Positions 1,976 through 63,790 of a stretch of DNA of 64,000 nt are shown piece after piece (position 1 is the stretch's first letter; the number at the start of each line of letters is the position of its first letter). A program made the position numbers and the translations under genes. Origin of the DNA: Elusimicrobiota bacterium (GTDB lineage Bacteria; Elusimicrobiota; Elusimicrobia; UBA1565). The stretch covers positions 24,238 to 88,237 of the forward strand of contig JBDRPD010000025.1 in NCBI GenBank assembly GCA_043827405.1, written 5' to 3'. The notes below the pieces were generated by a model. It searched no databases, had not been told where the DNA came from, and saw only the letters and a list, made by a program, of their open reading frames with translations.

Positions 1976-2018
1976 CTATTTCGGCTCCTATCTTCCATGG
2001 TATTTCACCGCGCCCGAA

Positions 2019-4258: not shown

Positions 4259-4385
4259 ACGGGAAGCTCCGGCTATTATACCGATATGGCGCGGTCATTC
4301 CAATCGGGATTATTTTTCCGGCGACCGCAGCCGGCTCAAAAATATTAAAATATCCGTGCCTTTCCTTCTTTTTGGAGCAAAAACC

Positions 4386-7097
<2,712 letters not shown>

Positions 7098-7103
7098 CGC
7101 GGC

Positions 7104-8668: not shown

Positions 8669-8706
8669 CTCGTATCCTCGCAGGGAGTATAGAAAATAAT
8701 CGCCCG

Positions 8707-9609
8707 CTAGCTCTTCTCCGCGCCGGCATCCGCCGCCTTGACCAGATAGATGCCCGCCAAAACGAGAGGGACGCCCAGCAGCATAAAAACGTCGAGCCGC
8801 TCGCCCAACATCAATACGCCGAGGGCTACCGCCACCACCGGATTGGCATAGGCGTAAACAGAAACCAAGTCGGTGGGCAGCCGCTCAAGCGCGTAAATAT
8901 AGGCCGTATATCCGACCATGGTGCCGAACACCGCCAGGTAGACAATCGCTCCCCAGCCGACGGCATCGGGAGCCCAGCGCGCCGCTTCCCCCCGCAGCAG
9001 ACCGAAGACGCCCAGGCAGACGCCGCCGACTAGCTGCTGCAGCGCTATCGTCAGCACCGGGTCCGCCCGGGGCTGATGGCGCTTGACGTATACCGAGCCG
9101 TAGGCCCAGGCCCCGGTCGCCAGGCAAAGCATGAAGACGCCGAAAGAGAAATCCGTGCCGGGCGGATGCCGGCGCAGGTCCGGCCACAGCAGCACCAGCA
9201 TCCCCAGAAACCCCGCGCCCAGGCCGATGAGCGCCCGAGGGCGCAGCGCCTCGCCCTCCAGGCGGGCGAAGAACACCATCCAAAACGGGGCCGAGGCGAT
9301 GACCATGGACGCGAGCCCCGCCGGCACCCACTGCTCGGACCAGGTCAGGGTCCCGTTGCCGATGACCAGCAGCAGGAAGGCGATCAGCGCCAGGTCGCGC
9401 CATTCCCGCGGCGCCGGCCAGCGCCGGGATAAGCCGCCGCGCGCGGCGCAGTAGAGCAGCATCGCCGCTCCCGCCAGCAGGAAGCGCACGCCGGCGAACA
9501 GGAAAGGCGGCAACCCCTCCCGCACACCGATGCGTATCGCGATATAGGTGGTGCCCCAAAAGAAACAAACGGCGGCGAGCGCCCAATAGGCTTTAGACCG
9601 GCTCGTCAG
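8707..9609 (-). CDS. EamA/DMT family transporter; true start probably the CTG at 9609
   Basis: About 10 TM helices. The conserved first helix (AYWALAAVCFFWGTTYIAIR) lies in frame upstream of the track start at 9525. Confidence 0.85.
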   Translation of the reverse strand: MTSRSKAYWALAAVCFFWGTTYIAIRIGVREGLPPFLFAGVRFLLAGAAMLLYCAARGGLSRRWPAPREWRDLALIAFLLLVIGNGTLTWSEQWVPAGLASMVIASAPFWMVFFARLEGEALRPRALIGLGAGFLGMLVLLWPDLRRHPPGTDFSFGVFMLCLATGAWAYGSVYVKRHQPRADPVLTIALQQLVGGVCLGVFGLLRGEAARWAPDAVGWGAIVYLAVFGTMVGYTAYIYALERLPTDLVSVYAYANPVVAVALGVLMLGERLDVFMLLGVPLVLAGIYLVKAADAGAEKS

Positions 9610-10124
9610 GACAGCCCCAGAAAATCGCTCATCTGCCGCATCAGCGATTCGGAAAAAGGCGGCTCGTAGAGGCCGGGCACGCCGGCCTGCGTCTTGATGA
9701 TCTCACCGGTGGGCGTTGAAACGATGAAGTTCGGCACGCCGCCCTGCAGCGGGACCTTACCCTCCGCGTCGATGAGGGCGTCCGGACCGAAGTCGGGCGC
9801 GTAGCGCTTGACGTTTTCCAGGTTGCCGCGGCCGACGACGATGCGGGTATCGATATTCCTGGCTTCAAGATACTTATGCACCGCGTTGAGGAAGGCGGTC
9901 GAACGCTGGCAGATCCCGCACCACGGCGCCACGTAAATGGTCACGCACCGGGGCGTCCGGCACTGCCCGAGGTCGACGGTCCGGGCGCCGTCGAGCGTTC
10001 GCAGCTCATGGCCGGCGAGGCTCAGCGCGGCGCGCTGATTCGGCACGCTCTTGGAGAGATAGGTCAGCCCCAGCAGCGCCGCGAACGTCCCGCCGATCCA
10101 GTAGAGATGTCTTTTGTTCTTCAT
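9606..10124 (-). CDS. Membrane-anchored thioredoxin-fold protein
   Basis: N-terminal TM, APWCGIC motif, GVP cis-Pro loop; ATG overlaps the upstream stop. Confidence 0.7.
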   Translation of the reverse strand: MKNKRHLYWIGGTFAALLGLTYLSKSVPNQRAALSLAGHELRTLDGARTVDLGQCRTPRCVTIYVAPWCGICQRSTAFLNAVHKYLEARNIDTRIVVGRGNLENVKRYAPDFGPDALIDAEGKVPLQGGVPNFIVSTPTGEIIKTQAGVPGLYEPPFSESLMRQMSDFLGLS

Positions 10125-10675
10125 TTGATGAGCGCCTGTACCGCCCGAAACTGCGCATGCCTGGAATGGCCCATCCACTCGAACAGCGCCATCTCCACAC
10201 TGGAGGGCACCGCGCCCGCCAGCTCCATCTTCCGCCGGCCGATTTCGATATTCTTCGGATCGCGCGCCGACAGGGCGTCTTCGATCAGGTGCACCTCATA
10301 GCCGGCCGCGAGCAGCTGATGCACCGTCTGGTTCATGCAGACATGCGCCTCAATGCCGCAGACGACGACCTGGGGCCGGTCCAGGCTCGCCAGCCGCTCG
10401 GTAATGATCTCATCGCCCAAGCAGCCGAAGGCGGTCTTCTCGAATTTGAGCGCGCCGGCGGGCAGGGCATCGGCGAGCTCGGCGACCGTCGGTCCGAGCC
10501 CCTTGGGATACTGCTCGCTGACGACGACCGGCACGTCGAGCAGCTTGGCGCCCTCGATGAGGGCCTTGGCCTTGGCGATCAGGGCCCGAAACTCGTGGAC
10601 GACCGGCACGAACTTCTCCTGGATATCCACCACCAGGAGGACGGACTTGTTTGGATCGAGCAGGTGTTTGGTCAT
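10121..10675 (-). CDS. Isochorismatase-family hydrolase
   Basis: VVDIQEKF, EQYPKGLGPT, KTAFGC, GIEAHVC. Confidence 0.9.
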   Translation of the reverse strand: MTKHLLDPNKSVLLVVDIQEKFVPVVHEFRALIAKAKALIEGAKLLDVPVVVSEQYPKGLGPTVAELADALPAGALKFEKTAFGCLGDEIITERLASLDRPQVVVCGIEAHVCMNQTVHQLLAAGYEVHLIEDALSARDPKNIEIGRRKMELAGAVPSSVEMALFEWMGHSRHAQFRAVQALIK

Positions 10676-10706
10676 ATATCTGTGAGCGGGAACCGGAAGC
10701 TATATA

Positions 10707-11303
10707 TTACGAAACCTGCCCCTCTAATAGCGCGGCGAGCCGGTCCATATCCTCCCAGCCGTAGCTGATTTTCTCAAGCGGCACGAACTTGGCGGACATG
10801 GAGCCCAAAAGCCGTCCGCCGAGGTCCTCGTAAAACTTGCGCGTGGGATTCTTTTCCAGAACCCAGACGAGCATGGCCGCATGGCCGTGATCCCGCAGCC
10901 AGCGGACGGCCTCCCCCATCAGCCGCCGGCCGACACCTTTCTTTTGCCGCGCGGCCAGCACGTAGATGGCGTAGAGCTCGCCGGTGCAGCGCTCATCGCT
11001 CTCCCCGGCGGCGGCGAAACCGAAGCTCCCATGCGTCGTATCCTCATCGCCCCGCCGGCGCGGCCCGGCGGCGGCGAAGCCGATGATCCGTCCGGCATGA
11101 TCTTCGGCGACAAAGCAGGCATGCGCAGAGTCGTTTTTCCGCAGGTGTTCGCGCTGCGCCGCGGCACGCTTGGCATAATCGAGACCGGCAAGCAGGTCAT
11201 CCGGCATGATGCCCTGATAGGCCGTACGCCAGGTATCGACGCTGACCCGGGCGATGCCTGCGGCGTCTTCAACGCGCGCCGGGCGGATGGTGACGTCGTC
11301 CAT
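10707..11303 (-). CDS. GNAT N-acetyltransferase
   Basis: IRPA, QKKGVGRRL acetyl-CoA motif, N-x-x-RKFYE. Confidence 0.9.
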   Translation of the reverse strand: MDDVTIRPARVEDAAGIARVSVDTWRTAYQGIMPDDLLAGLDYAKRAAAQREHLRKNDSAHACFVAEDHAGRIIGFAAAGPRRRGDEDTTHGSFGFAAAGESDERCTGELYAIYVLAARQKKGVGRRLMGEAVRWLRDHGHAAMLVWVLEKNPTRKFYEDLGGRLLGSMSAKFVPLEKISYGWEDMDRLAALLEGQVS

Positions 11304-11482
11304 GGGAAGATTATTCCAGATTTTGCGACCGGCGATAATAGACCGGCGACGCCGTCAGGGCTTCGGCTCGAATCCCAGCCTCTGCCTGTTGGACCGATTC
11401 CACTTCTAGATTCTCAAGAAACCAAACGGGCCCACCGAGATCATTCCCGATTTCTGGAGGGCGGCAAGATAACCTTCGCGCG

Positions 11483-12016
11483 TCAGTCGGGTTTTGGCTT
11501 GAACCCAATACGGGGACGCGGGTGCTCCGGCGGGGACAGGAACTCATCGACGATCTCAAACAGTGTCCGGATGTCCCGGCCGTGCCCAAGGCTATCCTTT
11601 TCCAGCTTGCCCAGCCTCTCCGCCAAGTCCCTATGGGCGGAGATCATCTCACGCAGCTTCACAAACGCCCTCATAATGGCAACGTTCACGCGGATGGCCC
11701 GGGGACTATGGAGCACTCCAGAGAGCATGGCGACGCCCTCCTGGGTGAATGCAAGCGGGAGCTTTCTGCGGCCGCCCCAGCCCGAACTTGATGTCGCAAA
11801 TTGCGACATCAAGTTGTCGAACTCCTGCCGGCTCAATCCAAACATAAAGTCCTTCGGGAAGCGCTTTCCATTCCGACGCACCTGCTCGTTCAGTCGACGC
11901 GTGCTGACGGCATACATAGCAGCCAAATCCGAATCCAGCATGACTCGCCGTCCCCGAATCAAGAAGATGCGTCTGCCTATCTCTGCGGCGGGGACCAAAG
12001 CCTGTCCACTTGCCAT
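11483..12016 (-). CDS. ORF6N domain DNA-binding protein (phage/mobile-associated)
   Basis: IRGRRVMLDSDLAAMY, LNEQVRRN, RFPKDFMF, AFTQEGVAMLS, IMRAFV, C-terminal RIGF. Confidence 0.9.
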   Translation of the reverse strand: MASGQALVPAAEIGRRIFLIRGRRVMLDSDLAAMYAVSTRRLNEQVRRNGKRFPKDFMFGLSRQEFDNLMSQFATSSSGWGGRRKLPLAFTQEGVAMLSGVLHSPRAIRVNVAIMRAFVKLREMISAHRDLAERLGKLEKDSLGHGRDIRTLFEIVDEFLSPPEHPRPRIGFKPKPD

Positions 12017-12101
12017 ACCCGCATATACGAACGAGCCCCCGATTTGGTTCCCAAAAAGGAACGACACGCCTCAAAATAGTTTGAGACGTGTCGCGAAAGA
12101 G

Positions 12102-12186
12102 CGGAGGGGGAGGGATTCGAACCCTCGGGACGTTGCCGCCCACCGGTTTTCAAGACCGGCCGTTTCAACCGCTCACGCACCCCTCC
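12102..12186 (-). tRNA. tRNA-Ser(TGA)
   Basis: GGAGGGGTGCGTGAGCGGTTGAAACGGCCGGTCTTGAAAACCGG...GGTTCGAATCCCTCCCCCTCCG; long variable arm, G discriminator, CCA not encoded. Confidence 0.93.
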
Positions 12187-12225
12187 TGCGACGACAAACC
12201 GCTAAATCCTTTCCTCGCTCCCCAA

Positions 12226-12250
12226 ACTGACAACACTTTTGGCAACACTT
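12226..12250. repeat. 25-bp repeat ACTGACAACACTTTTGGCAACACTT copy 1 (putative integrase arm sites)
   Basis: Exact second copy at 14147-14171; internal tandem CAACACTT. Confidence 0.75.
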
Positions 12251-12258
12251 TGACGTCG

Positions 12259-12672
12259 CTAATCATCCAAAACCGACCGCGCCCAGGCCCGGTAGCGTTC
12301 CAGGCTCTTCCACAGGTTGCCGATATCCTTGCGCGTATAAACATGGCCCTCATAGGATACCCGATTCTTCTCGTGTATCATGCGCTCGAGCTGCCGTAAA
12401 GCTTTCTGCGCCGCTTCATCCACCGGGATAATGCCGCGCAGGAGATCGGCCGCCGCCGCATGGTCCTCCCCCTTGCTCTTAACGCCTCCGCGCCGGATCG
12501 TAATGGCATCCGTATAGGCGATGGCCGCGTGCACGATGAGCACCCCCGCCGCGTTCCAGTACTCAAACCCCTGAGCCATCTCCGCGCCCTGGTAGAAGTT
12601 CTCCGCGACCTTCCGGTAGTCCTTGCTCCGGGCCTTCGGTACGCTGACTCTCTTCTGCGGCCTCGGGCTCAT
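12259..12672 (-). CDS. HEPN-domain protein (putative toxin)
   Basis: 137 aa helical protein, EDH and RVSYEGH (R-X5-H); overlaps the MNT stop. Confidence 0.75.
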   Translation of the reverse strand: MSPRPQKRVSVPKARSKDYRKVAENFYQGAEMAQGFEYWNAAGVLIVHAAIAYTDAITIRRGGVKSKGEDHAAAADLLRGIIPVDEAAQKALRQLERMIHEKNRVSYEGHVYTRKDIGNLWKSLERYRAWARSVLDD

Positions 12673-13295
12673 GCGAGAAAGTCCTCCAAACTCGTATCAA
12701 GCAAATCAATGCCCTCAGCGAGGATATTATTAATTAGCGGGTCCGCGCGGCGCGGCCGGGATTTCAGTTCATGCGCCGTTCTAATCAGCGGCGAGAGCCG
12801 CAAGCCGTAGCGCTGCGCCAACTTGCTTCCCAGAGCCTCGGCCTTGGCGAGGAGCTTGGCTTTGCCGCCGTTCTTAACGACCAATAGAATGTCGATATCG
12901 CTTCCCGGCTCTTCTTCGCCGCGGGCGGCGCTGCCGAAGAGCGTGGCGACTACGGCCTCGTCCTTGAATTCTTTTCGCAGGAGCGCCCGCAGCTCGCCCA
13001 TGGTCCGCTTCTCGGCCGCGAACATGGGGAGCAGGACGTCCCTGACCAGGTGATGTTCGAAGTTGAGGCGGATGAGCTGGGTCTTGCCCGAACCCTGGCG
13101 GTCGATCAGCCCCAAGACCTCCAGCTTGGCGATCGCGGCGCGAATCGCCCCATGCTGGAAGCCCGCCTCCCTGGCCACGGCCCGGCCGCTCATGCCCTGC
13201 TTGGTGTCCTTAAGAACACGCAGGACGGCGATATTGCTGGGTGCCGACAGGATCGAATCCAGCGGGCGCTTGAGATAGTTGGGGCGGCCCCTCAT
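12669..13295 (-). CDS. wHTH plus minimal nucleotidyltransferase (putative antitoxin)
   Basis: N-terminal HTH (SGRAVARE), LFGSAARGEEEPGSDIDILLV. Confidence 0.85.
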   Translation of the reverse strand: MRGRPNYLKRPLDSILSAPSNIAVLRVLKDTKQGMSGRAVAREAGFQHGAIRAAIAKLEVLGLIDRQGSGKTQLIRLNFEHHLVRDVLLPMFAAEKRTMGELRALLRKEFKDEAVVATLFGSAARGEEEPGSDIDILLVVKNGGKAKLLAKAEALGSKLAQRYGLRLSPLIRTAHELKSRPRRADPLINNILAEGIDLLDTSLEDFLA

Positions 13296-13330
13296 ATGGA
13301 TATTATAATATCCAAATGGATACTTTTCAA
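13296..13330 (-). promoter_or_regulatory. Sigma70 promoter TTGAAA-17-TATAAT with overlapping palindromic operators; leaderless start
   Basis: -35 at 13330-13325, -10 at 13307-13302, six bases between the -10 and the ATG; perfect 18-bp palindrome at 13297-13314. Confidence 0.75.
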
Positions 13331-13348
13331 CCCACACTTTACCGGCCG

Positions 13349-13870
13349 TTAAGGAGCTTTCGCGCCGTCCGACCGCGCCCGCGAGGCTGAGCTGGCTGGA
13401 CGGGGCGAAAGCAGCCCGCCGCAGGCGACCACGTCCAGAGCCTCGACGGCCTCCTCGGCCCGGGGCATGTTGTGGGACAGATAGCGTTGCGTCGTCGTCA
13501 AAACGCTATGGCCTAGAAGCTTGGACACGGTGTAGATGTCCACGCTCCGGTCCAGAAGGTCCCGGGCGAAAGTATGGCGCAGGTCGTGAAAGGTGAAGTC
13601 CGGCGGCAGGCCCGCGCGCTCGCAGGCGGCCTTGAACTTCGTCCAGAGGTTGTCCCGCTTCCAGGTAGTGCCGTCTTCCTTCACGAACACGTAACGGCTC
13701 AGCTTCGGGAGCCGCTTAAGCCGCTCGCGCGAATCCTTTGATATCGGGATGACGCGCAGCTTGTGCGACTTGGTACGGACCGCCGCAATCCGCTTCGTAT
13801 CCAGGTTCACGTTCTTCCACTCCAGGAAGATCAGCTCGGACATCCGCATCCCGGTCTTGAGGGCGAAGAT
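13349..13870 (-). pseudogene. N-terminally truncated tyrosine recombinase/integrase
   Basis: IFALKTGMRMSEL, TK, FHDLRHTFA, LLGHS and TQRY catalytic residues; no core-binding or arm-binding domains upstream. Confidence 0.85.
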
Positions 13871-13959
13871 GTTCGGAGGTGAACTGTGCCAAAAGCCCAG
13901 TCGTCAAGCGTCAGACCGGATCCGGCGATACCCCTCGCCGATCGGACGCGAAGTAAAGC

Positions 13960-54802: not shown

Positions 54803-55498
54803 TCAGCCGTCGGCTTTGATGCGGTAGCCGGAGCCGATGACGTTTTCCAGGCGCGAGGAGAACGGCTTGCCCAGCTTCTTTTTAAGGCGGGAAATATGGA
54901 CTTGCAGGGTATGCGAGTCGTTGTAGACGTCGGTTTCATAGCCCCAGACGGTTTCCAGCAGATAATTCTGCGTATGCAGCTTGCCCGGCTTGCGCAGCAG
55001 CACGGTAAGGAGATCGAACTCCTTGCGGGTCAGCGCCACGCTCTTGCCGCGCACCTTGACCGTGCGCTCCACCACGTCAAGCGTCATGCCGAAGCGTGTC
55101 AGCGTATCACCGAGCTCTTCCGGCGCGCTGAAGCGCCGCAGCACGGCGTCGATCTTGGCCAGCAACATATCGGCTTTGACCGGCTTAATGAGGTAATCGT
55201 CGGCGCCGCCGCGCAGGCCGGTCACCATATCTTCATCCTTGACCTTGGAGCCCGAGAGCAGAATCACCGGGATATGCTGGGTGCGCCGATCCTCGCGCAG
55301 GCGCCGGCAGATGTCCCGGCCGTCGGCGTCGCCGAGCATGACATCCATAAGCACCAGATCGGGCCTCGACTCACCCACCTTAAACAGGGCTTCCCCGCCG
55401 CTGTCGCAGGCGACCGAAGAGTACCCGCCCTTCTTCAGCTGCGCCTGGGTGAGCTTGCTGACCGCCGGATCGTCTTCAACGACAAGTATCTTTTTCAC
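54803..55498 (-). CDS. OmpR/PhoB family response regulator (paralog of 47448..48137)
   Basis: Shares LGDADGR, GLRGGADDY, YLLETVWG, VHISRLKKKLG. Confidence 0.92.
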   Translation of the reverse strand: MKKILVVEDDPAVSKLTQAQLKKGGYSSVACDSGGEALFKVGESRPDLVLMDVMLGDADGRDICRRLREDRRTQHIPVILLSGSKVKDEDMVTGLRGGADDYLIKPVKADMLLAKIDAVLRRFSAPEELGDTLTRFGMTLDVVERTVKVRGKSVALTRKEFDLLTVLLRKPGKLHTQNYLLETVWGYETDVYNDSHTLQVHISRLKKKLGKPFSSRLENVIGSGYRIKADG

Positions 55499-55597
55499 TC
55501 TTCGCTCTACGGCGGTATTGTAGCAACAAAGCCGTCCGTTGATCATAATGTTAGCCGGCGTTGACCATGAATTTACCCCCCTCGTATACGCTATAGC

Positions 55598-56719
55598 ATG
55601 TCCCAAGACTCTCCCGCCAAAGTCCTCGTGGTCGAAGACGATCCGACGGTCCTGCGGCTCACCGAGAGCGCGCTCAGCCGCGAGGGCTACCAGGTTTTGG
55701 CGGCCGCCACCGCGGATGCCGGACGGCGCGGCTTTGCGGAGCTGCGGCCGGACCTGGCCCTGCTCGACGTCGAGCTGCCCGACGGCAACGGCGTCGAGCT
55801 GTGCGGCGAGATGCGCGCCCGCGACGACGGGTCGATGCCGATCCTGTTTCTAACCGCGCATAACGAGATCGCGGACCGCCTGCGCGGCTTCGCCGCCGGC
55901 GCCAACGACTATATCCTCAAGCCATTCTCCTTCGACGAACTGACCGCTCGGGTGCGCGTGCATTTGGCGACCAAACAGTCCGGCGATACTTTAGTGCGCG
56001 AAAATCGCAAACTCGAACTGCGGGAGAGAACGCGGCGGGAATTGGCCGACATGATCGTCCACGACCTCAAGACGCCGCTGACCTCCATCCGCGGGACGCT
56101 GAGCATCATCCGGGAGTGCGGGCTGATCCATGACGCGCAGACCGTCCGCCTGCTGCAGATGTCGGAGGGGGCGACGGAGATGATGTCGCTGATGATAAAC
56201 GACATCCTCGACCTCTCCCGGTTCGAGAACGGCGGCGTCGAGCCGAAGCTCGAAGACATCACCGCCGCCGGCTTGTTTGAACGTCTGGTCCGGCTCTTCG
56301 AGCCGCAATGCATGCGCCACAAGGTCGACCTGCGGACCGCCGTGCGCCCCAACGACCTGGCTTTCCGGTCAGACTACATGCTGCTGTTCCGCATGCTTGC
56401 CAATATTACCGCCAACGCCGTCCAGCACTCGCTGCGGACCGGCGGGTCGGAGATCATAATCGAAGCGGCGCGGGAGAACGGCCGGGTGAGGCTCGCGGTC
56501 CTCGACCGCGGTCCGGGCGTGCCGGACGCCGATAAAAAGCGCATCTTCGAGAAGTTCGTGCGCTTGGAGCCGGCCGCAGACCCCATGGAAAAGACTGGGG
56601 GCATCGGCCTGGCATTCTGCCGGCTCGCCGCCGAGGCGCTCGGCGCCAAAATCTGGGTAGAAGACCGGGAAGGCGGCGGCAGCCGGTTCACTATCGAACT
56701 CCCGGCTGAAAAAAGCTAG
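55598..56719 (+). CDS. REC-HisKA-HATPase hybrid kinase
   Basis: Receiver; VHDLKTPL, NAVQH, DRGPGV, GIGL. Confidence 0.92.
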   Translation: MSQDSPAKVLVVEDDPTVLRLTESALSREGYQVLAAATADAGRRGFAELRPDLALLDVELPDGNGVELCGEMRARDDGSMPILFLTAHNEIADRLRGFAAGANDYILKPFSFDELTARVRVHLATKQSGDTLVRENRKLELRERTRRELADMIVHDLKTPLTSIRGTLSIIRECGLIHDAQTVRLLQMSEGATEMMSLMINDILDLSRFENGGVEPKLEDITAAGLFERLVRLFEPQCMRHKVDLRTAVRPNDLAFRSDYMLLFRMLANITANAVQHSLRTGGSEIIIEAARENGRVRLAVLDRGPGVPDADKKRIFEKFVRLEPAADPMEKTGGIGLAFCRLAAEALGAKIWVEDREGGGSRFTIELPAEKS

Positions 56720-59055
56720 CTCCGCGCCGTCACTTCCTGGAGCTTTTCGCGTACGCGCCCGAACTCTTCCTGCATGGCGGCGAATTTCCGGCGCGCCTCA
56801 TCGGGATCGCCGAATTCGGCGACCGCTTCGAGCTCCGCGCACCGCCCGCCCAAGCGGACGGCGCCCATGACGCGGCTTGAGCCTTTTAGCCGGTGCGCCA
56901 GCTTGCGCACCGTCTCGTGGTCGCCGCCGTCGAAAGCCCGCGCGATATCGCCCAAACGCTCGGGCACGTCCTTGAGATATATCCCGATGATCTCATTCAA
57001 GAGCTGCGGCTGATCCTGCGCGGTCTCGCGGATCTCATCGATAACGGACATGTCGATGGCCTCCGCCGGAGCGGCGGCGGACGGCGGCGCATCCTCCCGG
57101 CCGGAGATCCAGCGCTCGAGCATGCTCCCAAGCGCCTCCCTGGTGACGGGCTTGGGCAGGTGATCATTCATGCCGGCCTCCAGGGCCCGCTCCCTATCCG
57201 CCTGGAACGCATGCGCCGTAATCGCGATGATGGGGCCCTGATACGCGCCGCGCCGCCGGATCTCCCGCGCGGCGGCCAAGCCGTCCATAACCGGCATCTC
57301 GCAGTCCATGAGAATGGCCGCGTAGCCGCTCTGGGCATGAAGCGCGACGGCCTCCTGGCCGTTTTTCGCGACGTCGACCTCATAACCAAGATGCTTGATC
57401 AGGCTGCCCAGGACCATTTGGTTGACCGGATCGTCTTCGGCCAAGAGAACACGGGTGCCGTGGGGCACGTTCTGGGATTCGCACCGCGGCTTGTCCGGGA
57501 CCACCCAATCCGCGGCATCGCCCTCCAGCAGCAGCCGCGCCCGCTGATGGAGCGCGTACCGTCCCACCGGCTTGGTCATGCAGGCGTTGCAGTCGCGGTC
57601 AATACCTCTTTTCCTGCAGTAGCTCTCGACGCTGTTGAGCCGGAGCACCCGGACTCCCGCGAGGTCCGGGTCCGCATTAATCGCCTTGATCACATCGGCG
57701 CCGTCCATCCCCTGCATCTGCATATCGAGCAGCAGCAGTTCGAAGGGGCGGCCCGCCTTGACGGCCCCGCGCAGCAGCTCCAGGCCGGTCTTGCCGTCGG
57801 CGGCGCATATCCCGTCGGCGCCCCAGTACTCCATATACCGCGCGAGCCGCTCGCGCAGCGCATCGCTGTCGTCGATGACGAGAATCCGCCTGCCGCGAAA
57901 CGAACCCGCGGTCCCCCGACCGGCCGCGGAGCTCTCCGCCATCGTAAAGCGGGCGGTAAACCAGAACCGGCTGCCCCGGCCCGGCTCGCTTTCTAATCCG
58001 ATCTCCCCTCCCATGCGTTCAACGAGGGTCTTGCAGATCGCGAGACCGAGCCCCGTCCCGCCGAAACGCCGCGTCGTTGAGCTCTCCGCCTGGGTGAATG
58101 AATTGAAAATTTCTCCCAGCTTCCCTTGCGCGATGCCGATCCCCGAGTCGATCACCTCAAACGACAACAGCACCGACTCGTCGCCGCGCTCCGCCACGGC
58201 GACATTCACCAGGACGTCTCCCCGCTCGGCGAACTTAATGGCATTGCCGACCAGGTTCGCCAGCACCTGCTGCAGCCGCACCGGATCCCCGATCAACACG
58301 TAGGGCACGTCCTCCCATATAGAGCTGACGATCTCGATCTTCTTCTTCCGGGCGCCCGGACCCAGCATCTGCAGCCCCTTTTCGACGACCTCGTGCAGGT
58401 CAAATTCGACGCGCTCGAGCTCAAGCTTGTCCGACTCAAGCTTCGAATAGTCGAGGATATTGTTGATGACGCCGAGGAGGTGTTCGCCCGAGCGTTTTAT
58501 CGTGTCCACGAAATCCCGCTGCGAACTGTCAAGCGACGTCGTAGACAGCAGATCGGCCGTTCCGATAACCCCGCACAACGGCGTACGTATCTCGTGGCTC
58601 ATATTGGCGAGAAAAGCCGATTTCACCTGCGCCGCGCGCAGCGCCTCGACTTCGGCATTTTTCCTGGCGGTGATATCGAAGCGAATCGCGACATAATGCT
58701 GCGGCGCGCCGTTCCGATCCAAAATGGGCGTTATCGTCGAGCTGAGCCAGTACAGGTTTCCGCCTTTGTCTTTATTTCTGATCTCGCCCCGCCATACCTC
58801 GCCGCGCCGGATGGTCTCCCACATATCGCGGAAGAACTCCTTGGGATGATGGCCGGAATTGACGATCCGGTGGTCCTTCCCGACAAGCTCGTCGCGCGAG
58901 TACTTAGACAGCATGCAGAAGCGGTCGTTGACATAGACGATCCGGCCCTTAACGTCGGTGATCGCCACGATCGCCGATTCGTCGAGGGCCAGCTTGATGT
59001 CTTTGTGATTGCGCAGCGCCCGGCGCAGCGCTTTTTCCTGCGTTTCCATACCCAA
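56716..59055 (-). CDS. Hybrid histidine kinase PAS-HisKA-HATPase-REC-REC-HPt
   Basis: SHEIRTP, GGTGLGL, two receivers, AHRLKGSS. Confidence 0.94.
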   Translation of the reverse strand: MGMETQEKALRRALRNHKDIKLALDESAIVAITDVKGRIVYVNDRFCMLSKYSRDELVGKDHRIVNSGHHPKEFFRDMWETIRRGEVWRGEIRNKDKGGNLYWLSSTITPILDRNGAPQHYVAIRFDITARKNAEVEALRAAQVKSAFLANMSHEIRTPLCGVIGTADLLSTTSLDSSQRDFVDTIKRSGEHLLGVINNILDYSKLESDKLELERVEFDLHEVVEKGLQMLGPGARKKKIEIVSSIWEDVPYVLIGDPVRLQQVLANLVGNAIKFAERGDVLVNVAVAERGDESVLLSFEVIDSGIGIAQGKLGEIFNSFTQAESSTTRRFGGTGLGLAICKTLVERMGGEIGLESEPGRGSRFWFTARFTMAESSAAGRGTAGSFRGRRILVIDDSDALRERLARYMEYWGADGICAADGKTGLELLRGAVKAGRPFELLLLDMQMQGMDGADVIKAINADPDLAGVRVLRLNSVESYCRKRGIDRDCNACMTKPVGRYALHQRARLLLEGDAADWVVPDKPRCESQNVPHGTRVLLAEDDPVNQMVLGSLIKHLGYEVDVAKNGQEAVALHAQSGYAAILMDCEMPVMDGLAAAREIRRRGAYQGPIIAITAHAFQADRERALEAGMNDHLPKPVTREALGSMLERWISGREDAPPSAAAPAEAIDMSVIDEIRETAQDQPQLLNEIIGIYLKDVPERLGDIARAFDGGDHETVRKLAHRLKGSSRVMGAVRLGGRCAELEAVAEFGDPDEARRKFAAMQEEFGRVREKLQEVTARS

Positions 59056-59128: not shown

Positions 59129-59965
59129 TTATTCCAGCTGGAAGATGAACTTCTGGGGCACGCGCACGGCCACCGGACGGCCGCGCCGCATGGCGGGAGA
59201 GAACAGCATGGTGCGGGCGGCCTTCTGCGCCGCCTCATCGAAGGCCCGGCCGTCCGAGCGCAGCACCTCGACCGGCGCGGTGCGCCCGTCCTCGCCGATC
59301 TCGAGCTTGAGGAGGACATGGCCCTCGCGGCCGGCGCGGCGCTCGGACTCGGGGTAGAAGCGGCGCAGGTTCTTGAGCAGCTCCTCTTTGTTGAGCAGGC
59401 GGGGCAGGAGATCGAGCGGCTGGCCGGTTCCGGTGCCGTCGCCGGTCCCTTCGCCGTAGCCGCGCCCGCCGCCGGAAAGCGGGGCGCTGCCGGTTCCGTG
59501 CAGCGCTCCGTCCGGGCCGCCCGGGGCGTCGGCGCCCGGCGTCTCCACCGCGCCCTCCGGCACGGCGAGCGGCGGCGGCGCAAAATCCGCCGCGGCGTTC
59601 ACTTTCTCCGCCACCGGCTCGGCGGCGGTCGGCGCGGCGATCGGCTCGGGCCTGGCTTCCGGCAGCGCCGTCACCGGGACGACCGCGGGCGCCGGCTTGG
59701 GCGGCGCCTTGGGCGGCATCTGCGTCAGCGGCGCCTCCTTGGGCGCCAGCGGCTTGGGCGGCGCCTCATACACCGGCCCCGCCCTGCGCCCGCCGGTGCC
59801 CAAAGGGATACTGAGATCGATCTCCATCACCGGGCGGCTCGAGGCGAAGGGATTGCGCAGCCCGATGCCGGCCAGCAGCATCAGTCCGGCATGCAGCGCG
59901 AAGGAAGCTCCCAGGCAGCGCTTAAATAAAATCGGATCGGCGGGAGACGCGGCGAAAAAGCTCAC
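59129..59965 (-). CDS. tonB: TonB energy transducer
   Basis: SFALH TM motif, Pro-rich linker, YP..ERRAGREG C-terminal domain. Confidence 0.88.
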   Translation of the reverse strand: MSFFAASPADPILFKRCLGASFALHAGLMLLAGIGLRNPFASSRPVMEIDLSIPLGTGGRRAGPVYEAPPKPLAPKEAPLTQMPPKAPPKPAPAVVPVTALPEARPEPIAAPTAAEPVAEKVNAAADFAPPPLAVPEGAVETPGADAPGGPDGALHGTGSAPLSGGGRGYGEGTGDGTGTGQPLDLLPRLLNKEELLKNLRRFYPESERRAGREGHVLLKLEIGEDGRTAPVEVLRSDGRAFDEAAQKAARTMLFSPAMRRGRPVAVRVPQKFIFQLE

Positions 59966-60363
59966 CGCGACCGGACCTCCAGGCTGGCCTTGCGGATGCC
60001 TGCCCCGCGCACCACATCCAAAATGCCGACCATCTCCCCGTAGGAAACCGTCTGGTCACCCGCGACCATGACCCGGAGGTTCGGGTTTGTCCGCCGCATG
60101 CCGGAAAGCGTGGCGGCCAGCTCGGCGCGATCGACTTTCCGCCCCGCGAGGTAGAGCTTCCCCCGGCCGTTGTAGACCACCTCCAGCGCCTCGATTTCGG
60201 CGGTCTCCTGATGGGCGGCGGCGGGAACGTCCACCTTGATCGCCCGGCGGTTGATCAAGGGCGCCGTGGCCATGAAGATGATGAGCACGACCAGGATAAT
60301 ATCGACCAACGGGGTGACGTTAATGTCGGTGATCGCATCGGGGGATTCACCGCCGCTCTTCAT
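59962..60363 (-). CDS. exbD: ExbD/TolR
   Basis: INVTPLVDIILVVLIIFM. Confidence 0.92.
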   Translation of the reverse strand: MKSGGESPDAITDINVTPLVDIILVVLIIFMATAPLINRRAIKVDVPAAAHQETAEIEALEVVYNGRGKLYLAGRKVDRAELAATLSGMRRTNPNLRVMVAGDQTVSYGEMVGILDVVRGAGIRKASLEVRSR

Positions 60364-60374
60364 TCAGCCTCCGT

Positions 60375-60995
60375 CTACGCGGACCGCAGATGCGAGAGGA
60401 TCAGCCGGGACAAGGTTTCCGTCGCCGTCAGCAAATCCTGGACCTGCTTCTTGAAGTAGTTATAACTGATGACGCAGGGGATGGCAACGAACAGCCCCAC
60501 CGCGGTAGCGATCAAGGCTTCGGAAAGCCCCGCCATCACCACCTCCGGACCGGCCGAGCTGTGCCGCGCCAGGTCATGAAAAGCGCGGATCACCCCCAAC
60601 ACCGTACCGAACAGGCCGACAAACGGCGCGTTGTTGCCCAGGGTCCCGAGGACCAGCAGGCGCTTCTCCAAAAAACGACGTTCCTCCAGGCTCGCCGCGA
60701 CGAAGCGGTGCTCGGCGGAAGCCGGTCCCCGGCCGATCGACAGCAGCCCCGAACGGAGAATGCGGCTCACCGCGCCGGGCGAAGACTGCAGCAGCTTGTC
60801 GGCCGCTTCCAGCTTGTCCGCGTCGATCAGCTCGAGCAGCTTGCCGCGCAGGCCCGCCAGCAGTAAATCTTCCCGGCGCAGGACCAGCGCGCGCTCGATA
60901 ATGATCGCAAGCGCGAAGACCGAAGCCAGAAGCAGCCCCCAGATGACCCAGTCGCCCCCGGTCAGCGCGAACGCTTTGATAATCCCAAGTCCCAT
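60375..60995 (-). CDS. exbB: ExbB/TolQ/MotA proton channel
   Basis: APFVGLFGTVLGVI, EALIATAVGL. Confidence 0.92.
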   Translation of the reverse strand: MGLGIIKAFALTGGDWVIWGLLLASVFALAIIIERALVLRREDLLLAGLRGKLLELIDADKLEAADKLLQSSPGAVSRILRSGLLSIGRGPASAEHRFVAASLEERRFLEKRLLVLGTLGNNAPFVGLFGTVLGVIRAFHDLARHSSAGPEVVMAGLSEALIATAVGLFVAIPCVISYNYFKKQVQDLLTATETLSRLILSHLRSA

Positions 60996-61001
60996 GGCCG
61001 C

Positions 61002-61820
61002 CTACTCGCTGTCCTTGAATTTTTTCAGGCGCAGCAGCGCCCCGGCCAGCTCCGCGCGCACGATCGGGTCCGGCTCACCGATCAGCCGGCTCTGCAGCAG
61101 CCGGTACTCGAAGCCTTCGCCGAGCTCGCCGATATAGCGCGTGGCCAGCGCGCGGATAAACCAGTCGTTGTGACTCGCATAGTCGCGCAGGATCTGCCGG
61201 CTCAGCTCGAAGCCGAGCTCCTTGCGCCGCCAGTCCGCGGCCGAGGCGATGACGCGCAGGATGAAGCTCTGGTCGTCGTGCGCGGCCTGGCGCACCCGGT
61301 CGCGGGCGGGCACGCTGTCGAGCAGCAGCAGGGCCTCGAGCGCGCCCAAGCGGACGGTAAAATTCTCATCGACGATCGCGTCCTGGGCCGGGCCGAGGAA
61401 CATCTCGTTTTTGGTATAGCCCAGCGCGACGAGCGCGGCCGCCCGCAGCTGCGGATTCTCGCCGGTCCGGGTCACATCACGCAGGGCGTTCTGCAGGGGA
61501 ACATCCTTAACGCCGGCGAGACCTTCAAGCAGCAGGAAGCTCAGCTCCGTATAGCGCGTCTTGAGCTTGTGGCCGCGCTGGGTCACCAGCTTGCTGAGAT
61601 TGGCGAGCGAGGAGTCGTTCGGGTCCGGCCGCAGACCCTTGGACTGCAGCAGCCGTAAAAGCGTCGCGTTGACCCGGGGATCGATCCGGTACTGATCCGG
61701 TATTTTTTCGCGCGGCGCGGTGATGACGATCGGGTCGAGCTCGAAATACAACGACGGCACGCCTTGCGCGGCGGCGGAAACCGCGAGGGACCCCGCGACG
61801 AGGAGGAGCGCGGCGCGCAT
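61002..61820 (-). CDS. Exported HEAT-repeat protein with N-terminal TonB-box-like motif
   Basis: Signal peptide (AAAQ), LDPIVITA, HEAT-like repeats (LRAAALVALG, VRLGALEAL, IRALATRYIG). Confidence 0.78.
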   Translation of the reverse strand: MRAALLLVAGSLAVSAAAQGVPSLYFELDPIVITAPREKIPDQYRIDPRVNATLLRLLQSKGLRPDPNDSSLANLSKLVTQRGHKLKTRYTELSFLLLEGLAGVKDVPLQNALRDVTRTGENPQLRAAALVALGYTKNEMFLGPAQDAIVDENFTVRLGALEALLLLDSVPARDRVRQAAHDDQSFILRVIASAADWRRKELGFELSRQILRDYASHNDWFIRALATRYIGELGEGFEYRLLQSRLIGEPDPIVRAELAGALLRLKKFKDSE

Positions 61821-62686
61821 CACGGCTCCTCCGACTTGGGGAAAAGTTTGAGCGCGGCGATCGCGTACTCGGCGAGAATAAAAGGATCCTTCTCCGTGTC
61901 CAGCAGGCGGACGAAGGTATGATAATCCTTCCCCTCGCCGAAATCCCCGAGGTAGCGCGCGGCGTTGGCCCGGACCAGCCAGTTCTGGCTGCCGAGGAAA
62001 TCGCGCAGCTTGTCGAGACCCGACGTATCGCCCAGCCGCGCCAGCGCCTGGGCGCAAAAGACCCGCAGCACCGGCTCGATGTCATTTTGCCAGGCCACCG
62101 TTAACAGCGGCAGCGCCTTCTGCCTGAGCTCGGCGGCGTGCTTCCCGCCGTCGGCCCAGACCATCAAGGCCTCCAGCGTGCCGAAGCGAATCGCGGGATG
62201 ATTATGCGCCACCGCTTCATGAAACACCGCATAGTCCTCAGGGTTGTGGAACCTGGCCAGGCCGATCAGGGCGGTGGTGCGCACCTCGGGCTCCCGGGCC
62301 CAGCGCGCCATCTCCACCAGCCTCTTGCGCAGCGCCTCATCGGGATCGCGGGCCAGCGCCTCGGCGACGGCAACGCCGGGATTCAAATAGCGGTTGCGCA
62401 GCTGATAGCCGATCGGAGAGCCCACTTTTAGAATCTCACAGAACGCCGCCGGGGTCGCGCTCTCGTCGCATAGCCCGATATCCGGCTTGATTTTGTCGAC
62501 GCGTTCCAGAACGTCGACCAAGGCGTTGAGTATTTGGGGATCGGTCTCAGATAAAGATTTCGGCGGGGGCGGCGCGCCGGGGAGAAAAATCGGCGCGTTC
62601 GGATCGACCGGCAATTCCACGCAGCCCAGGCATAGCCCGAGAGCGGCCGCGCCCGCCAGCAAATAGTACTGTGTCTTTCTAGCCAT
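61820..62686 (-). CDS. HEAT-repeat lipoprotein
   Basis: Lipobox-like CLGC; repeats VRTTALIGL, IRFGTLEAL, VRANAARYLG. Confidence 0.78.
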   Translation of the reverse strand: MARKTQYYLLAGAAALGLCLGCVELPVDPNAPIFLPGAPPPPKSLSETDPQILNALVDVLERVDKIKPDIGLCDESATPAAFCEILKVGSPIGYQLRNRYLNPGVAVAEALARDPDEALRKRLVEMARWAREPEVRTTALIGLARFHNPEDYAVFHEAVAHNHPAIRFGTLEALMVWADGGKHAAELRQKALPLLTVAWQNDIEPVLRVFCAQALARLGDTSGLDKLRDFLGSQNWLVRANAARYLGDFGEGKDYHTFVRLLDTEKDPFILAEYAIAALKLFPKSEEP

Positions 62687-63623: not shown

Positions 63624-63697
63624 GCGGGCGTAGTTCAATGGTAGAACACGAGCCTTCCAAGCTCGATACGTGGGTTCGATTCCCATCGCCCGCTCCA
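63624..63697 (+). tRNA. tRNA-Gly(TCC)
   Basis: Full cloverleaf, loop CTTCCAA context, encoded CCA. Confidence 0.96.
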
Positions 63698-63717
63698 TTG
63701 AGCAGGACCGTGTTTTC

Positions 63718-63790
63718 GCTGAGGTAGCTCAGCTGGTAGAGCATCTCCATGGTAAGGAGAAGGTCGTGGGTTCGATCCCCATCCTCAGCT
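63718..63790 (+). tRNA. tRNA-Thr(GGT)
   Basis: Full cloverleaf, anticodon loop ATGGTAA; canonical Gly-Thr-tuf order. Confidence 0.95.

What the first reader, a model, noticed from the sequence alone, without database searches (positions are those of the whole stretch)
61716..61736. TonB-box-like heptapeptide DPIVITA at the mature N-terminus of a non-barrel protein
Seen: about ten residues after the predicted signal cleavage the protein reads ELDPIVITAPR. Known: TonB boxes look like DTLVVTA (BtuB) and DTIVVTA (FepA) and sit at this same position. The lipoprotein paralog lacks the motif. Inference: this is a direct TonB docking site on a periplasmic HEAT protein encoded just upstream of exbB.
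Basis: partly seen in the sequence, partly recalled or inferred. Interest (0 to 1): 0.8.

Follow-up and report, generated by a model that had tools for sequence, protein, structure and literature searches.

The report
TonB box on a barrel-less HEAT protein
A secreted helical-repeat protein encoded next to a TonB motor carries the same short docking motif that outer-membrane transporters use to engage TonB, which suggests the motor pulls on a protein that is not a membrane barrel.

Summary
Window 61716..61736 (- strand) encodes DPIVITA, residues 29-35 of a 272-aa secreted HEAT-repeat protein (HEAT-B). The gene sits in a tight operon: lipoprotein HEAT paralog (HEAT-A), HEAT-B, exbB, exbD, tonB.

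- **Conservation:** the extended motif L-E-P-L-[VTI]-[IV]-T-A-P-R is present in 81 of 81 Elusimicrobia loci. It always lies in an indel-rich, low-confidence linker. In about 30 of 80 loci the two HEAT genes are fused, so the motif is internal.
- **Synteny:** all 66 loci with at least 2 kb downstream carry exbB-exbD-tonB.
- **TonB-box likeness:** a matrix built only from the HEAT-B motifs picks out the pre-Plug TonB boxes of the phylum's own transporters. 11 of 53 reach the 99.9th background percentile, for example PALDPLVITASR.
- **Transporter-free genomes:** five cassette genomes have no detectable TonB-dependent transporter.
- **Complex prediction:** weak support only (0.32, best control 0.00).
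- **Counter-evidence:** one clade has lost the adjacent motor yet keeps LEPLVI-x-PPR.

Verdict: this is probably (about 0.58) a genuine TonB box on a non-barrel, lipoprotein-associated alpha-solenoid client. That would be a new variant of Ton coupling. What the pulling achieves is unknown, and binding is unproven.

The parts
61820..62686 (-). HEAT-A: 288-aa lipoprotein paralog. It has an LGLCLGC lipobox, HEAT_2 repeats and no TonB-box motif.
   Evidence: ORF. Pfam HEAT_2 at 4.3e-19. Motif matrix best score -8.0. Its stop codon overlaps the HEAT-B ATG by 1 nt.
61002..61820 (-). HEAT-B: 272-aa secreted HEAT-repeat protein that carries the motif. Coordinates include the stop codon.
   Evidence: Pfam HEAT_2 at 4.8e-15. 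AlphaFold2 model: mean pLDDT 82.9, helical solenoid from about residue 100. Structural neighbours are generic HEAT-like alphaRep proteins.
61767..61820 (-). Putative Sec signal peptide, residues 1-18, with cleavage AAA|QG.
   Evidence: By eye from the translation. No signal-peptide predictor was available.
61710..61745 (-). Extended conserved motif FELDPIVITAPR (residues 26-37). The core heptapeptide DPIVITA is 61716..61736.
   Evidence: Residues 17-31 have pLDDT<50, and residues 31-40 average 59.
60375..60995 (-). exbB (206 aa), starting 6 nt after the HEAT-B stop.
   Evidence: Pfam MotA_ExbB at 5.2e-30.
59962..60363 (-). exbD (133 aa). A transmembrane Asp is seen by eye in TPLVDIILV.
   Evidence: Pfam ExbD at 3.2e-27. 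Sequence.
59129..59965 (-). tonB (278 aa). It has an S-x3-H in the membrane anchor (by eye), a Pro-rich spacer and a C-terminal TonB_C domain. Its GTG start overlaps the exbD stop by 4 nt.
   Evidence: Pfam TonB_C at 2.5e-17, residues 203-277. Sequence. The C-terminal domain (59132..59413) was used.

Best explanation
The motif is a genuine TonB box carried by a non-barrel protein. HEAT-A is a lipoprotein anchor. HEAT-B is its secreted paralog. In many relatives the two are a single fused lipoprotein. Together they form an alpha-solenoid pair that is the dedicated client of the co-transcribed ExbB-ExbD-TonB motor.

The disordered segment L-E-P-L-V-I-T-A-P-R sits just before the second HEAT domain. 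It is proposed to pair as a beta-strand with the TonB C-terminal domain, as transporter TonB boxes do. Proton-motive-force-driven pulling would then act on the junction between the two HEAT domains, separating or opening them.

Shown here: the motif, its conservation, its likeness to the phylum's transporter TonB boxes, its position in a flexible linker, the invariant operon, and the persistence of the cassette in transporter-free genomes.

Inferred: physical binding, outer-membrane location of the lipoprotein, and what the pulling achieves (release of a bound partner, envelope tethering, or signalling).
For: 1. **Conservation.** The motif is present in 81 of 81 loci, with near-invariant L, E/D, P, L, I/V, T, A, P, R. 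The flanking linker residues are variable and indel-rich.
2. **Synteny.** HEAT genes followed by ExbB, ExbD and TonB occur in 66 of 66 loci with at least 2 kb downstream. The other 14 loci hold as many of the three genes as fit before the contig end. One further metagenome locus, only 35% identical, has the same layout and LEPLVVTAPR.
3. **Likeness to real TonB boxes.** A matrix was built only from 43 unique HEAT-B 12-mers. It was scanned over the segment just upstream of the Plug domain in 53 transporters from 24 Elusimicrobia genomes. It reaches the 99.9th percentile of 3207 own-genome N-termini in 11 of 53, the 99th in 16 of 53 and the 95th in 21 of 53. The top hits are the transporters' TonB boxes: PALDPLVITASR, MQLETIVVTASR, DRLEPMVITATR and PEPEPVVITASR.
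4. **Accessibility.** Residues 17-31 of HEAT-B and the linker 288-307 of a fused homolog have pLDDT<50.
5. **The TonB is orthodox.** It has the best TonB_C score in the genome. TonBs from transporter-ExbB-ExbD-TonB operons nest inside the cassette TonB tree with starred support (98/91 and 100/94). Those operons have the transporter where the HEAT genes sit here.
6. **Transporter-free genomes.** Five cassette genomes, 92-98% complete, have no Plug hit and no barrel hit over cut-off. All five keep HEAT plus TonB side by side.
7. **Co-absence.** One same-genus genome without the HEAT genes also lacks this TonB type.
8. **Complex prediction.** The verdict was weak support. ipSAE was 0.32 (runs 0.41, 0.32, 0.30) and the best of 3 controls was 0.00. 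Runs agreed in at least 78% of contacts and partner pLDDT was at least 79. The mark was reached by 116 of 157 solved complexes and 2 of 215 mismatched pairs. Scores of 0.60 or under were seen in only 18 of those 157 solved complexes and in both mismatches that passed.
Against: - The complex prediction gives weak support only, and no interface was reported. It therefore does not show that TonB sits on the motif. TonB/TonB-box complexes are solved, so even this pass could come from memory of those structures.
- One clade lacks an adjacent exbB-exbD-tonB: 2 genomes and 6 metagenome contigs, probably a single evolutionary event. The two genomes have no TonB of this type at E<=1e-5. The clade still conserves LEPL[VI]I-x-PP[RQ]LRIP, with T changed to V/I/R and A changed to P. 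Part of the motif is therefore constrained by something other than the cassette TonB.
- In the fused model the C-terminal half of the motif (ITAPR) lies in a block with mean pLDDT 83, so it may pack on the domain.
- 32 of 53 transporter segments score below the 95th percentile. This genome's single transporter box (RLPDVIISAKG) scores -12.2.
- The TonB tree rests on only 95 columns, and its outgroups were unplaceable.
- All genomes are metagenome-assembled. There are no experimental data.
Confidence: 0.58

Rival explanations
1. The motif does bind TonB, but HEAT-A/HEAT-B are accessory or regulatory parts of the general Ton system and not a force-actuated client. HEAT-B could park, recruit or compete for the TonB C-terminal domain, acting as a resting-state dock or decoy. 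That would tune energy delivery to transporters.
For: - In most cassette genomes this is the only TonB of its type: 15 of the 21 HEAT-bearing genomes with a match show a single match.
- Transporters in those genomes carry near-identical boxes. G176 holds PALDPLVITASR and PEPEPVVITASR and has only the cassette TonB of this type.
- Alpha-solenoid accessory proteins recur beside Ton/Tol motors. This genome has a 1316-aa TPR protein next to ExbB-ExbD-ExbD-TonB_C. CpoB is a TPR lipoprotein in Tol-Pal (PMC12204202, passages seen).
Against: - Five cassette genomes have no detectable transporter to regulate.
- A decoy would not obviously need a lipoprotein paralog, or fusion to one.
- No regulatory domain was found.
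Confidence: 0.2
2. The motif is a structural strand of the HEAT pair itself. It could cap HEAT-B or dock onto HEAT-A. Its likeness to TonB boxes would then be convergent, and TonB would not bind it.
For: - The motor-less clade keeps LEPLVI-x-PPR.
- ITAPR gains confidence (pLDDT about 83) in the fused two-domain model, whose pTM is 0.83, compared with about 59 in the HEAT-B monomer.
- The motif is more invariant than transporter TonB boxes are among themselves.
Against: - The N-terminal half of the motif stays at pLDDT<50 in both models.
- Convergence would have to reproduce the phylum-specific box up to 10 of 12 residues (PALDPLVITASR against FELDPIVITAPR) in a gene that always sits beside tonB.
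- The T and A positions drift exactly in the clade that lost the motor.
Confidence: 0.17
3. The motif is a chance resemblance in a linker, with no function.
For: Short hydrophobic heptapeptides are common.
Against: - 81 of 81 loci keep the motif, at 38-74% overall protein identity, inside an otherwise variable linker.
- The next best proteome hit scores 10.2 bits, against 38.0 for HEAT-B.
Confidence: 0.02

Closest known systems
TonB box of TonB-dependent transporters (TonB/BtuB and TonB/FhuA type coupling)
   Same: - The consensus is the same kind of short strand-forming motif, here matching the phylum's own transporter boxes.
- It lies in a disordered segment just N-terminal to a folded domain.
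- It is encoded with ExbB-ExbD-TonB, in the slot that a transporter gene occupies in paralogous operons.
- Passages describing binding by parallel beta-strand augmentation and the pulling model were seen in PMC12905483 and PMC7066135.
   Different: - The carrier has no Plug domain and no beta-barrel. It is an all-helical HEAT solenoid that is secreted or lipoprotein-fused.
- There is no pore to open, so the output of pulling must differ.
Tol-Pal: the N-terminal TolA-binding strand of TolB, together with the lipoprotein Pal
   Same: - A soluble periplasmic protein with a disordered N-terminal strand binds a TonB-like C-terminal domain by beta-strand augmentation.
- That protein partners with a lipoprotein and is encoded with a MotA/ExbB-type motor (PMC7066135, passages seen).
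   Different: - The folds are unrelated: HEAT repeats here, against a beta-propeller and an OmpA-like domain there.
- The force transducer here is an orthodox TonB (TonB_C at 2.5e-17), not TolA.
- This genome has its own TolB and Pal (22.4 and 126.7 bits) and a TolQ-TolR-TolA-like cluster. The cassette is therefore not a Tol-Pal substitute.
Myxococcus Agl-Glt gliding machinery (GltG/GltJ TonB-like proteins and the GltB N-terminal extension)
   Same: A potential TonB-box consensus has been noted on a protein that is not a TonB-dependent transporter, and it is proposed to be pulled by TolA/TonB-like arms (PMC9946355, one passage seen).
   Different: - GltB is still an outer-membrane beta-barrel.
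- That motor is AglRQS with TolA-like GltG/J.
- No HEAT proteins are involved.
TonB boxes of TonB-dependent bacteriocins (colicins B, M, Ia and pyocins). Recalled, not checked by a call apart from the listing of a colicin M paper.
   Same: These are non-barrel soluble proteins that carry an N-terminal TonB box to engage TonB.
   Different: Those are exogenous toxins that parasitise the target cell's TonB after threading through a transporter. Here the carrier is an endogenous protein co-transcribed with the motor.
Alpha-solenoid (TPR) accessory proteins of Ton/Tol clusters, such as CpoB
   Same: Helical-repeat proteins, often lipoproteins, are encoded beside ExbB/ExbD/TonB-like genes. CpoB as an ancestral lipoprotein, including in Elusimicrobia, is described in passages of PMC12204202.
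   Different: I found no such protein described as carrying a TonB box. The own-genome TPR protein has no hit to the motif matrix; the best proteome score outside HEAT-B is 10.2.

Membership tests
TonB box (TonB-binding motif) | Sequence fits the TonB-box consensus of transporters from the same lineage. | tested here: met
   A matrix built from HEAT-B motifs alone recovers pre-Plug TonB boxes. 11 of 53 reach the 99.9th background percentile, 16 of 53 the 99th and 21 of 53 the 95th. The best hit is PALDPLVITASR at 25 bits.
TonB box (TonB-binding motif) | Lies in an exposed, flexible periplasmic segment just N-terminal to a folded domain. | tested here: met
   pLDDT<50 for residues 17-31 of HEAT-B and for the linker 288-307 of fused P0046, whose motif is at 305-315. 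Export is inferred by eye from the signal peptide and lipobox. The ITAPR half is more ordered.
TonB box (TonB-binding motif) | Binds the TonB C-terminal domain by beta-strand augmentation. | tested here: inconclusive
   Complex prediction gave weak support. ipSAE was 0.32 against a best control of 0.00. The mark was reached by 116 of 157 solved and 2 of 215 mismatched pairs, but scores of 0.60 or under are weak. No contacts were reported.
TonB box (TonB-binding motif) | Function depends on TonB/ExbBD and proton-motive force, and proline substitutions uncouple it. | not testable with these tools
   This needs biochemistry or genetics. The organisms are uncultured.
TonB box (TonB-binding motif) | Co-occurs with a TonB system. 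| tested here: met
   66 of 66 loci with at least 2 kb downstream carry ExbB, ExbD and TonB. 21 of 23 HEAT-bearing genomes have this TonB type, and the 2 exceptions have the A-to-P motif variant.
TonB-dependent transporter | Plug domain plus a 22-strand TonB_dep_Rec beta-barrel. | tested here: not met
   Pfam finds only HEAT_2/HEAT in HEAT-B. The model is all-helical.
Tol-Pal (TolB / Pal) | TolB_N plus beta-propeller for TolB, and an OmpA-like peptidoglycan-binding lipoprotein for Pal. | tested here: not met
   There are no such domains in HEAT-A or HEAT-B. Separate TolB and Pal genes lie on contig C3.
HEAT_2 / PBS-lyase-type HEAT repeat proteins (PF13646) | Pfam match above the gathering score, and an alpha-solenoid fold. 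| tested here: met
   56 and 69 bits against a cut-off of 27.7. Foldseek top hits are alphaRep HEAT-like repeat proteins.
ExbB-ExbD-TonB motor | MotA_ExbB, ExbD and TonB_C domains above cut-off. The anchor S-x3-H in TonB and the transmembrane Asp in ExbD. | tested here: met
   Pfam results. S-x3-H (SFALH) and the ExbD Asp (LVDIIL) were seen by eye. The remainder of the SHLS motif quoted in PMC12905483 is not evident.

The most novel reading that the evidence does not exclude
This would be a barrel-less Ton system. It would form a third class of proton-motive-force-driven trans-envelope force transduction, beside Ton-transporter and Tol-Pal. In it an orthodox TonB grips a TonB box in the hinge of a lipoprotein-anchored two-domain HEAT clamp and mechanically opens it.

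The cassette would have arisen by replacing the transporter gene of a transporter-exbB-exbD-tonB operon. It can be the only TonB client in genomes that have no transporter.
Probability: 0.35. Interest if true: 0.85.

Novelty: new variant of a known kind. Interest (0 to 1): 0.72.

Why it matters
TonB is thought to act on outer-membrane beta-barrels by unfolding their plug. The only accepted endogenous non-barrel target of this motor family is TolB, in the Tol-Pal branch.

A conserved, operon-encoded helical-repeat protein with a bona fide TonB box would widen what Ton motors can do. Possible outputs are opening a soluble or lipid-anchored clamp, envelope tethering, or signalling. It would also give a simple two-protein system for studying force transmission by TonB without a membrane barrel.

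Finally, it would explain why some Elusimicrobia keep a full Ton motor when no transporter is detectable in them.

Tried and rejected
- **Structure search.** A Foldseek search of the HEAT-B model against the PDB gave only generic HEAT/alphaRep/armadillo solenoids and no functional lead.
- **Protein atlas.** The ESM Atlas look-up gave only generic HEAT clusters, all with scores below 0.9.
- **Conserved neighbours outside the cassette.** Radical SAM, amine-oxidase-type and URO-D heme-synthesis genes, GAF, RNase D-like and MgtC genes recur in at most 26 of 80 loci. They were judged not to be part of the unit.
- **Tol-Pal substitute idea.** Rejected, because TolB and Pal are present elsewhere in the genome.
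- **'Cassette TonB is a separate, diverged family'.** Rejected. The profile also finds transporter-operon TonBs at 94-110 bits, and these nest within the cassette clade.
- **Outgroups.** The own-genome TonB-like and TolA-like C-terminal domains were far too long-branched (length 10) to root the tree.
- **Promoter, terminator and Fur-box check.** The promoter/terminator scan and an inspection of the upstream intergenic region gave nothing usable. No Fur-box-like site was seen by eye.
- **FecR.** It was considered as a non-barrel TonB-box carrier. The passages read show that the TonB box there belongs to FecA.
- **Earlier findings of this scan.** Nothing was found by place or by sequence.
- **Literature.** Six searches found no description of a TonB box on a HEAT-repeat protein. 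Only the listed top hits were inspected: 15 of 149, and 12 of 27.
- **Not attempted.**
  - Co-variation between the motif and TonB residues, because the motif is too invariant and the sequences are phylogenetically structured.
Full report
**What is at the coordinates.** On the minus strand, window 61716..61736 reads GAC CCG ATC GTC ATC ACC GCG, which is DPIVITA. These are residues 29-35 of a 272-aa ORF at 61002..61820, here called HEAT-B.

- The N-terminus (MRAALLLVAGSLAVSAAA|QG) looks like a Sec signal peptide. This is by eye; no predictor was available. On that reading the motif begins about 11 residues into the mature chain.
- Pfam finds only HEAT_2/HEAT in HEAT-B. It finds the same in the 288-aa gene just upstream (61820..62686), here called HEAT-A, which has an LGLCLGC lipobox.
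- The three genes downstream are MotA_ExbB, ExbD and TonB_C, all above their curated cut-offs.
- The five genes are packed as an operon. HEAT-A and HEAT-B overlap by 1 nt. The next two junctions are gaps of 6 nt and 11 nt. exbD and tonB overlap by 4 nt (coordinates).
- The TonB has an S-x3-H in its anchor, a Pro-rich spacer and the best TonB_C score in the genome.

**Conservation and anatomy.**

- A sequence search found 42 close relatives of similar length, all from Elusimicrobia where named. Their alignment has the consensus L-x-P-L-V-I-T-A-P-R, with A35, P36 and R37 at least 90% conserved.
- An exhaustive search added many proteins of 500-590 aa. In these a lipoprotein HEAT-A domain, a Pro/Ala-rich linker, the motif (ELEPLVVTAPR and the like) and a HEAT-B domain form one chain. 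The named ones are again Elusimicrobia.
- A scan of species-representative genomes returned 80 loci. About 50 are split and 30 fused. Roughly four short loci cut at a contig end are ambiguous.
- With the window, the motif is present in 81 of 81. Counting back from the final R as position 0, the tallies out of 81 are:

| Position | Residue(s) | Count of 81 |
|---|---|---|
| -9 | L | 73 |
| -8 | E/D | 76 |
| -7 | P | 69 |
| -6 | L/I | 80 |
| -5 | V / T / I | 43 / 18 / 14 |
| -4 | I/V | 81 |
| -3 | T | 69 |
| -2 | A | 79 |
| -1 | P | 76 |
| 0 | R | 79 |

- The residues in front of the motif are variable and full of indels.
- HEAT-A homologs have no such motif. The best score of 50 is 5.9 bits at an internal helix, and the window copy scores -8.0, against 41.2 for HEAT-B.
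- In the AlphaFold2 model of HEAT-B (mean pLDDT 82.9), residues 17-31 are below 50 and residues 31-40 average 59. The confident solenoid starts near residue 100.
- In the model of a fused homolog (P0046, pTM 0.83), the linker 288-307 is below 50. The motif is at 305-315. Its first half is unconfident, and its ITAPR half lies in a block averaging 83.

The motif is thus exposed, at least in its N-terminal half. It is internal in the fused forms, much as the TonB box of transporters with an N-terminal signalling domain is internal.

**Link to the motor.**

- All 66 loci with at least 2 kb of DNA after the HEAT gene carry ExbB, ExbD and TonB in that order and on the same strand.
- The 14 shorter loci carry as many of the three as fit: 6 have all three, 5 have ExbB and ExbD, and 3 have ExbB only.
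- Genes outside this unit are not conserved, recurring in at most 26 of 80 loci.
- In a sample of 251 Elusimicrobiota genomes, the HEAT profile hits 23. These belong to seven families of larger-genome lineages. None is in the two large families of small genomes, 0 of 71 and 0 of 84.

**Is it really a TonB box?** I tested this against the phylum's own transporters, not against recalled E. coli boxes.

- I fetched the DNA around 53 Plug-domain hits from 24 genomes. I translated up to 80 residues upstream of each Plug domain, in the frame of the Plug match.
- I built a position matrix from the 43 unique HEAT-B 12-mers only, and scanned those 53 segments with it. The background was the first 83 residues of 3207 ORFs of this genome.
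- 11 of 53 transporter segments reach the background's 99.9th percentile. 16 of 53 reach the 99th, and 21 of 53 the 95th.
- The best windows are the transporters' TonB boxes: PALDPLVITASR (25 bits), MQLETIVVTASR, FEDEARVITASR, DRLEPMVITATR and PEPEPVVITASR. These can be read directly.
- Against this: 32 of 53 segments fall below the 95th percentile. They include other box styles (EEAKVVSASR, TPITITA, VFLSLTR) and this genome's single transporter (RLPDVIISAKG, -12.2 bits).
- In the whole proteome scan, nothing but HEAT-B exceeds 10.2 bits.

**The TonB is an ordinary one.**

- A profile of the cassette TonB C-terminal domain scores 101-147 bits on the cassette TonB in 21 of the 23 HEAT-bearing genomes.
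- It scores 94-110 bits on TonBs that lie in transporter-exbB-exbD-tonB operons. These operons have the same layout as the cassette, with a transporter where the HEAT genes sit.
- In a maximum-likelihood tree of 77 C-terminal domains, the three transporter-operon TonBs form a clade (100/94). That clade is nested with starred support (98/91) among cassette TonBs.
- The tree has only 95 columns, and its two outgroups were unplaceable.
- A same-genus genome without the HEAT genes also has no TonB of this type.

**Genomes without transporters.**

- Five of the cassette genomes have no Plug hit. They are G192, G214, G232, G110 and G198, at 92-98% completeness.
- None has a TonB_dep_Rec barrel hit over cut-off either. 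There is one sub-threshold hit of 16.9 bits.
- All five keep the HEAT gene and the TonB within about 2.5 kb of each other.
- These are metagenome-assembled genomes, so absence is not proven. Even so, the motor appears to have a reason to exist apart from barrels.

**Direct modelling.**

- I sent mature HEAT-B (residues 20-272) and the TonB C-terminal domain (residues 185-278) as locus-matched alignments of 71 rows each.
- The verdict was weak support. ipSAE was 0.32 (runs 0.41, 0.32, 0.30) and the best of three controls was 0.00. Runs agreed in at least 78% of contacts and partner pLDDT was at least 79.
- The mark was reached by 116 of 157 solved complexes and 2 of 215 mismatched pairs. At 0.60 or under, however, it was reached by only 18 of those 157 solved complexes, and by both mismatches that passed.
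- No interface was reported.
- TonB/TonB-box complexes are solved, so a pass may partly reflect memory of them.

This result neither establishes nor contradicts docking at the motif.

**Evidence that cuts the other way.**

- The two HEAT-bearing genomes of family f10 have a fused HEAT lipoprotein gene that is not followed by exbB-exbD-tonB. They have no TonB of this type at E<=1e-5.
- A metagenome scan with this subtype found six more full-length contigs with the same property. Four have 0.7-5 kb downstream and two have less than 0.9 kb.
- The same scan found one distant contig (35% identity) with canonical LEPLVVTAPR that is followed by the motor.
- In the motor-less clade the motif reads LEPL[VI]I-[VIRT]-PP[RQ]LRIP. 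The T and A positions have changed (A to P in 8 of 8), but LEPLVI and PR remain.

This can be read two ways. The positions that drift are those that are near-invariant when the motor is present, which fits TonB docking. The rest of the motif stays conserved without the cassette TonB, which suggests a second constraint. That constraint could be another TonB paralog (each genome has three TonB_C hits) or a structural role. The clade is probably a single evolutionary event, so it counts once.

**Other motors in this genome.**

- There is a TPR(1316 aa)-ExbB-ExbD-ExbD-TonB_C-like cluster.
- There is a TolQ-TolR-TolA-like cluster at a contig end.
- There are four MotA-MotB clusters with FliG-domain proteins.
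- TolB (22.4 bits, at the cut-off) and Pal (126.7 bits) lie together on another contig.

The cassette is therefore an addition to Tol-Pal, not a replacement for it.

**Most likely mechanism.**

- Shown: a flexible, conserved segment with the phylum's TonB-box sequence precedes the second HEAT domain of a lipoprotein-associated HEAT pair. That pair is always co-encoded with an orthodox Ton motor.
- Inferred: the segment pairs as a strand with the TonB C-terminal domain, and the motor pulls on the junction between the two HEAT domains. Passages in PMC7066135 and PMC12905483 describe this mode for TonB-transporter and TolA-TolB complexes.
- Unknown: the consequence of pulling. Options are separation of HEAT-B from HEAT-A with release of something held between them, envelope tethering, or a signalling or regulatory role. 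Whether the lipoprotein sits in the outer membrane is also unknown.
- I put about 0.58 on a genuine TonB box with the HEAT pair as a force-actuated client. I put about 0.2 on a TonB-binding accessory or decoy role, about 0.17 on a purely structural strand, and about 0.02 on chance.

**Comparison with what is known.**

- The closest analogue in logic is Tol-Pal. There, a soluble periplasmic protein with a disordered N-terminal strand binds the force transducer, has a lipoprotein partner, and is encoded with the motor. The folds and the transducer differ, and the genome has its own Tol-Pal.
- The closest analogue in sequence is the transporter TonB box, but the defining Plug and barrel are absent.
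- A possible TonB box on a non-transporter barrel, GltB, has been noted in Myxococcus.
- Bacteriocin TonB boxes are a recalled precedent for soluble carriers, but those are exogenous toxins.
- In six literature searches I found no description of a TonB box on a HEAT-repeat or other alpha-solenoid protein. Only the listed top hits were examined, and subscription journals are not covered.

**Verdict.**

It is strong on comparative grounds and unproven physically.
- I rate the finding a new variant of a known kind: Ton coupling to a barrel-less client.
- I score interest at 0.72. A specialist would be surprised by an endogenous, operon-encoded non-barrel TonB-box protein, and the claim is directly testable with two small recombinant proteins.

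Noticed in passing
Own genome outside the window: L107 (C49) 1647-7714, L108 (C68) 5261-9149, L109 (C54) 3123-8693, L110 (C42) 1078-7802: There are four separate MotA-MotB clusters, two of them with tandem MotB genes. Each sits next to a protein with FliG_M/FliG_C domains, one of which is fused to a histidine kinase, and next to TPR/UPF0164-like proteins. No flagellar context was seen in the stretches examined.
   Followed up: no
Own genome, L105 (C105) 6217-13911: A 1316-aa TPR/YfiO-like protein is followed by ExbB, two ExbD genes, a weak TonB_C protein (367 aa) and an unassigned 377-aa protein. This is a second Ton-like motor with an alpha-solenoid neighbour, but it has no TonB-box motif.
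   Followed up: partly
L117 (G240) 5300-7328 and L118 (G146) 3493-4975: In the motor-less clade the fused HEAT lipoprotein gene is followed by small secreted or membrane proteins. By eye these resemble TPM-domain and LemA-type proteins. No family search was run on them.
   Followed up: no
L119 (G188), L120 (G249), L121 (G181): Transporter-exbB-exbD-tonB operons are preceded by a small (about 90 aa) Cys/His-rich membrane protein with the recurring motif HHH...H(D/E)DC(P/A)(L/I)C. Its function was not examined.
   Followed up: no
Loci L006-L085, 3-6.5 kb upstream of the cassette: Heme-synthesis-type genes recur upstream on the same strand in 12-26 of 80 loci. They are URO-D, a protoporphyrinogen-oxidase-like amine oxidase and a radical SAM enzyme. 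This is too patchy to tie to the cassette.
   Followed up: partly
Own genome, L111 (C100) 872-2242 and contig end 2696-2860: A group II intron reverse transcriptase/maturase lies next to a partial TonB_C fragment that is cut by the contig end.
   Followed up: no
window 54803..59055 and 63624..63790: Directly downstream of tonB lie three ORFs that by eye are two-component proteins: a response regulator, a receiver-kinase hybrid, and a 779-aa PAS hybrid kinase with receiver and Hpt-like parts. No family search was run on them. tRNA-Gly(TCC) and tRNA-Thr(GGT) lie at 63624-63790.
   Followed up: no
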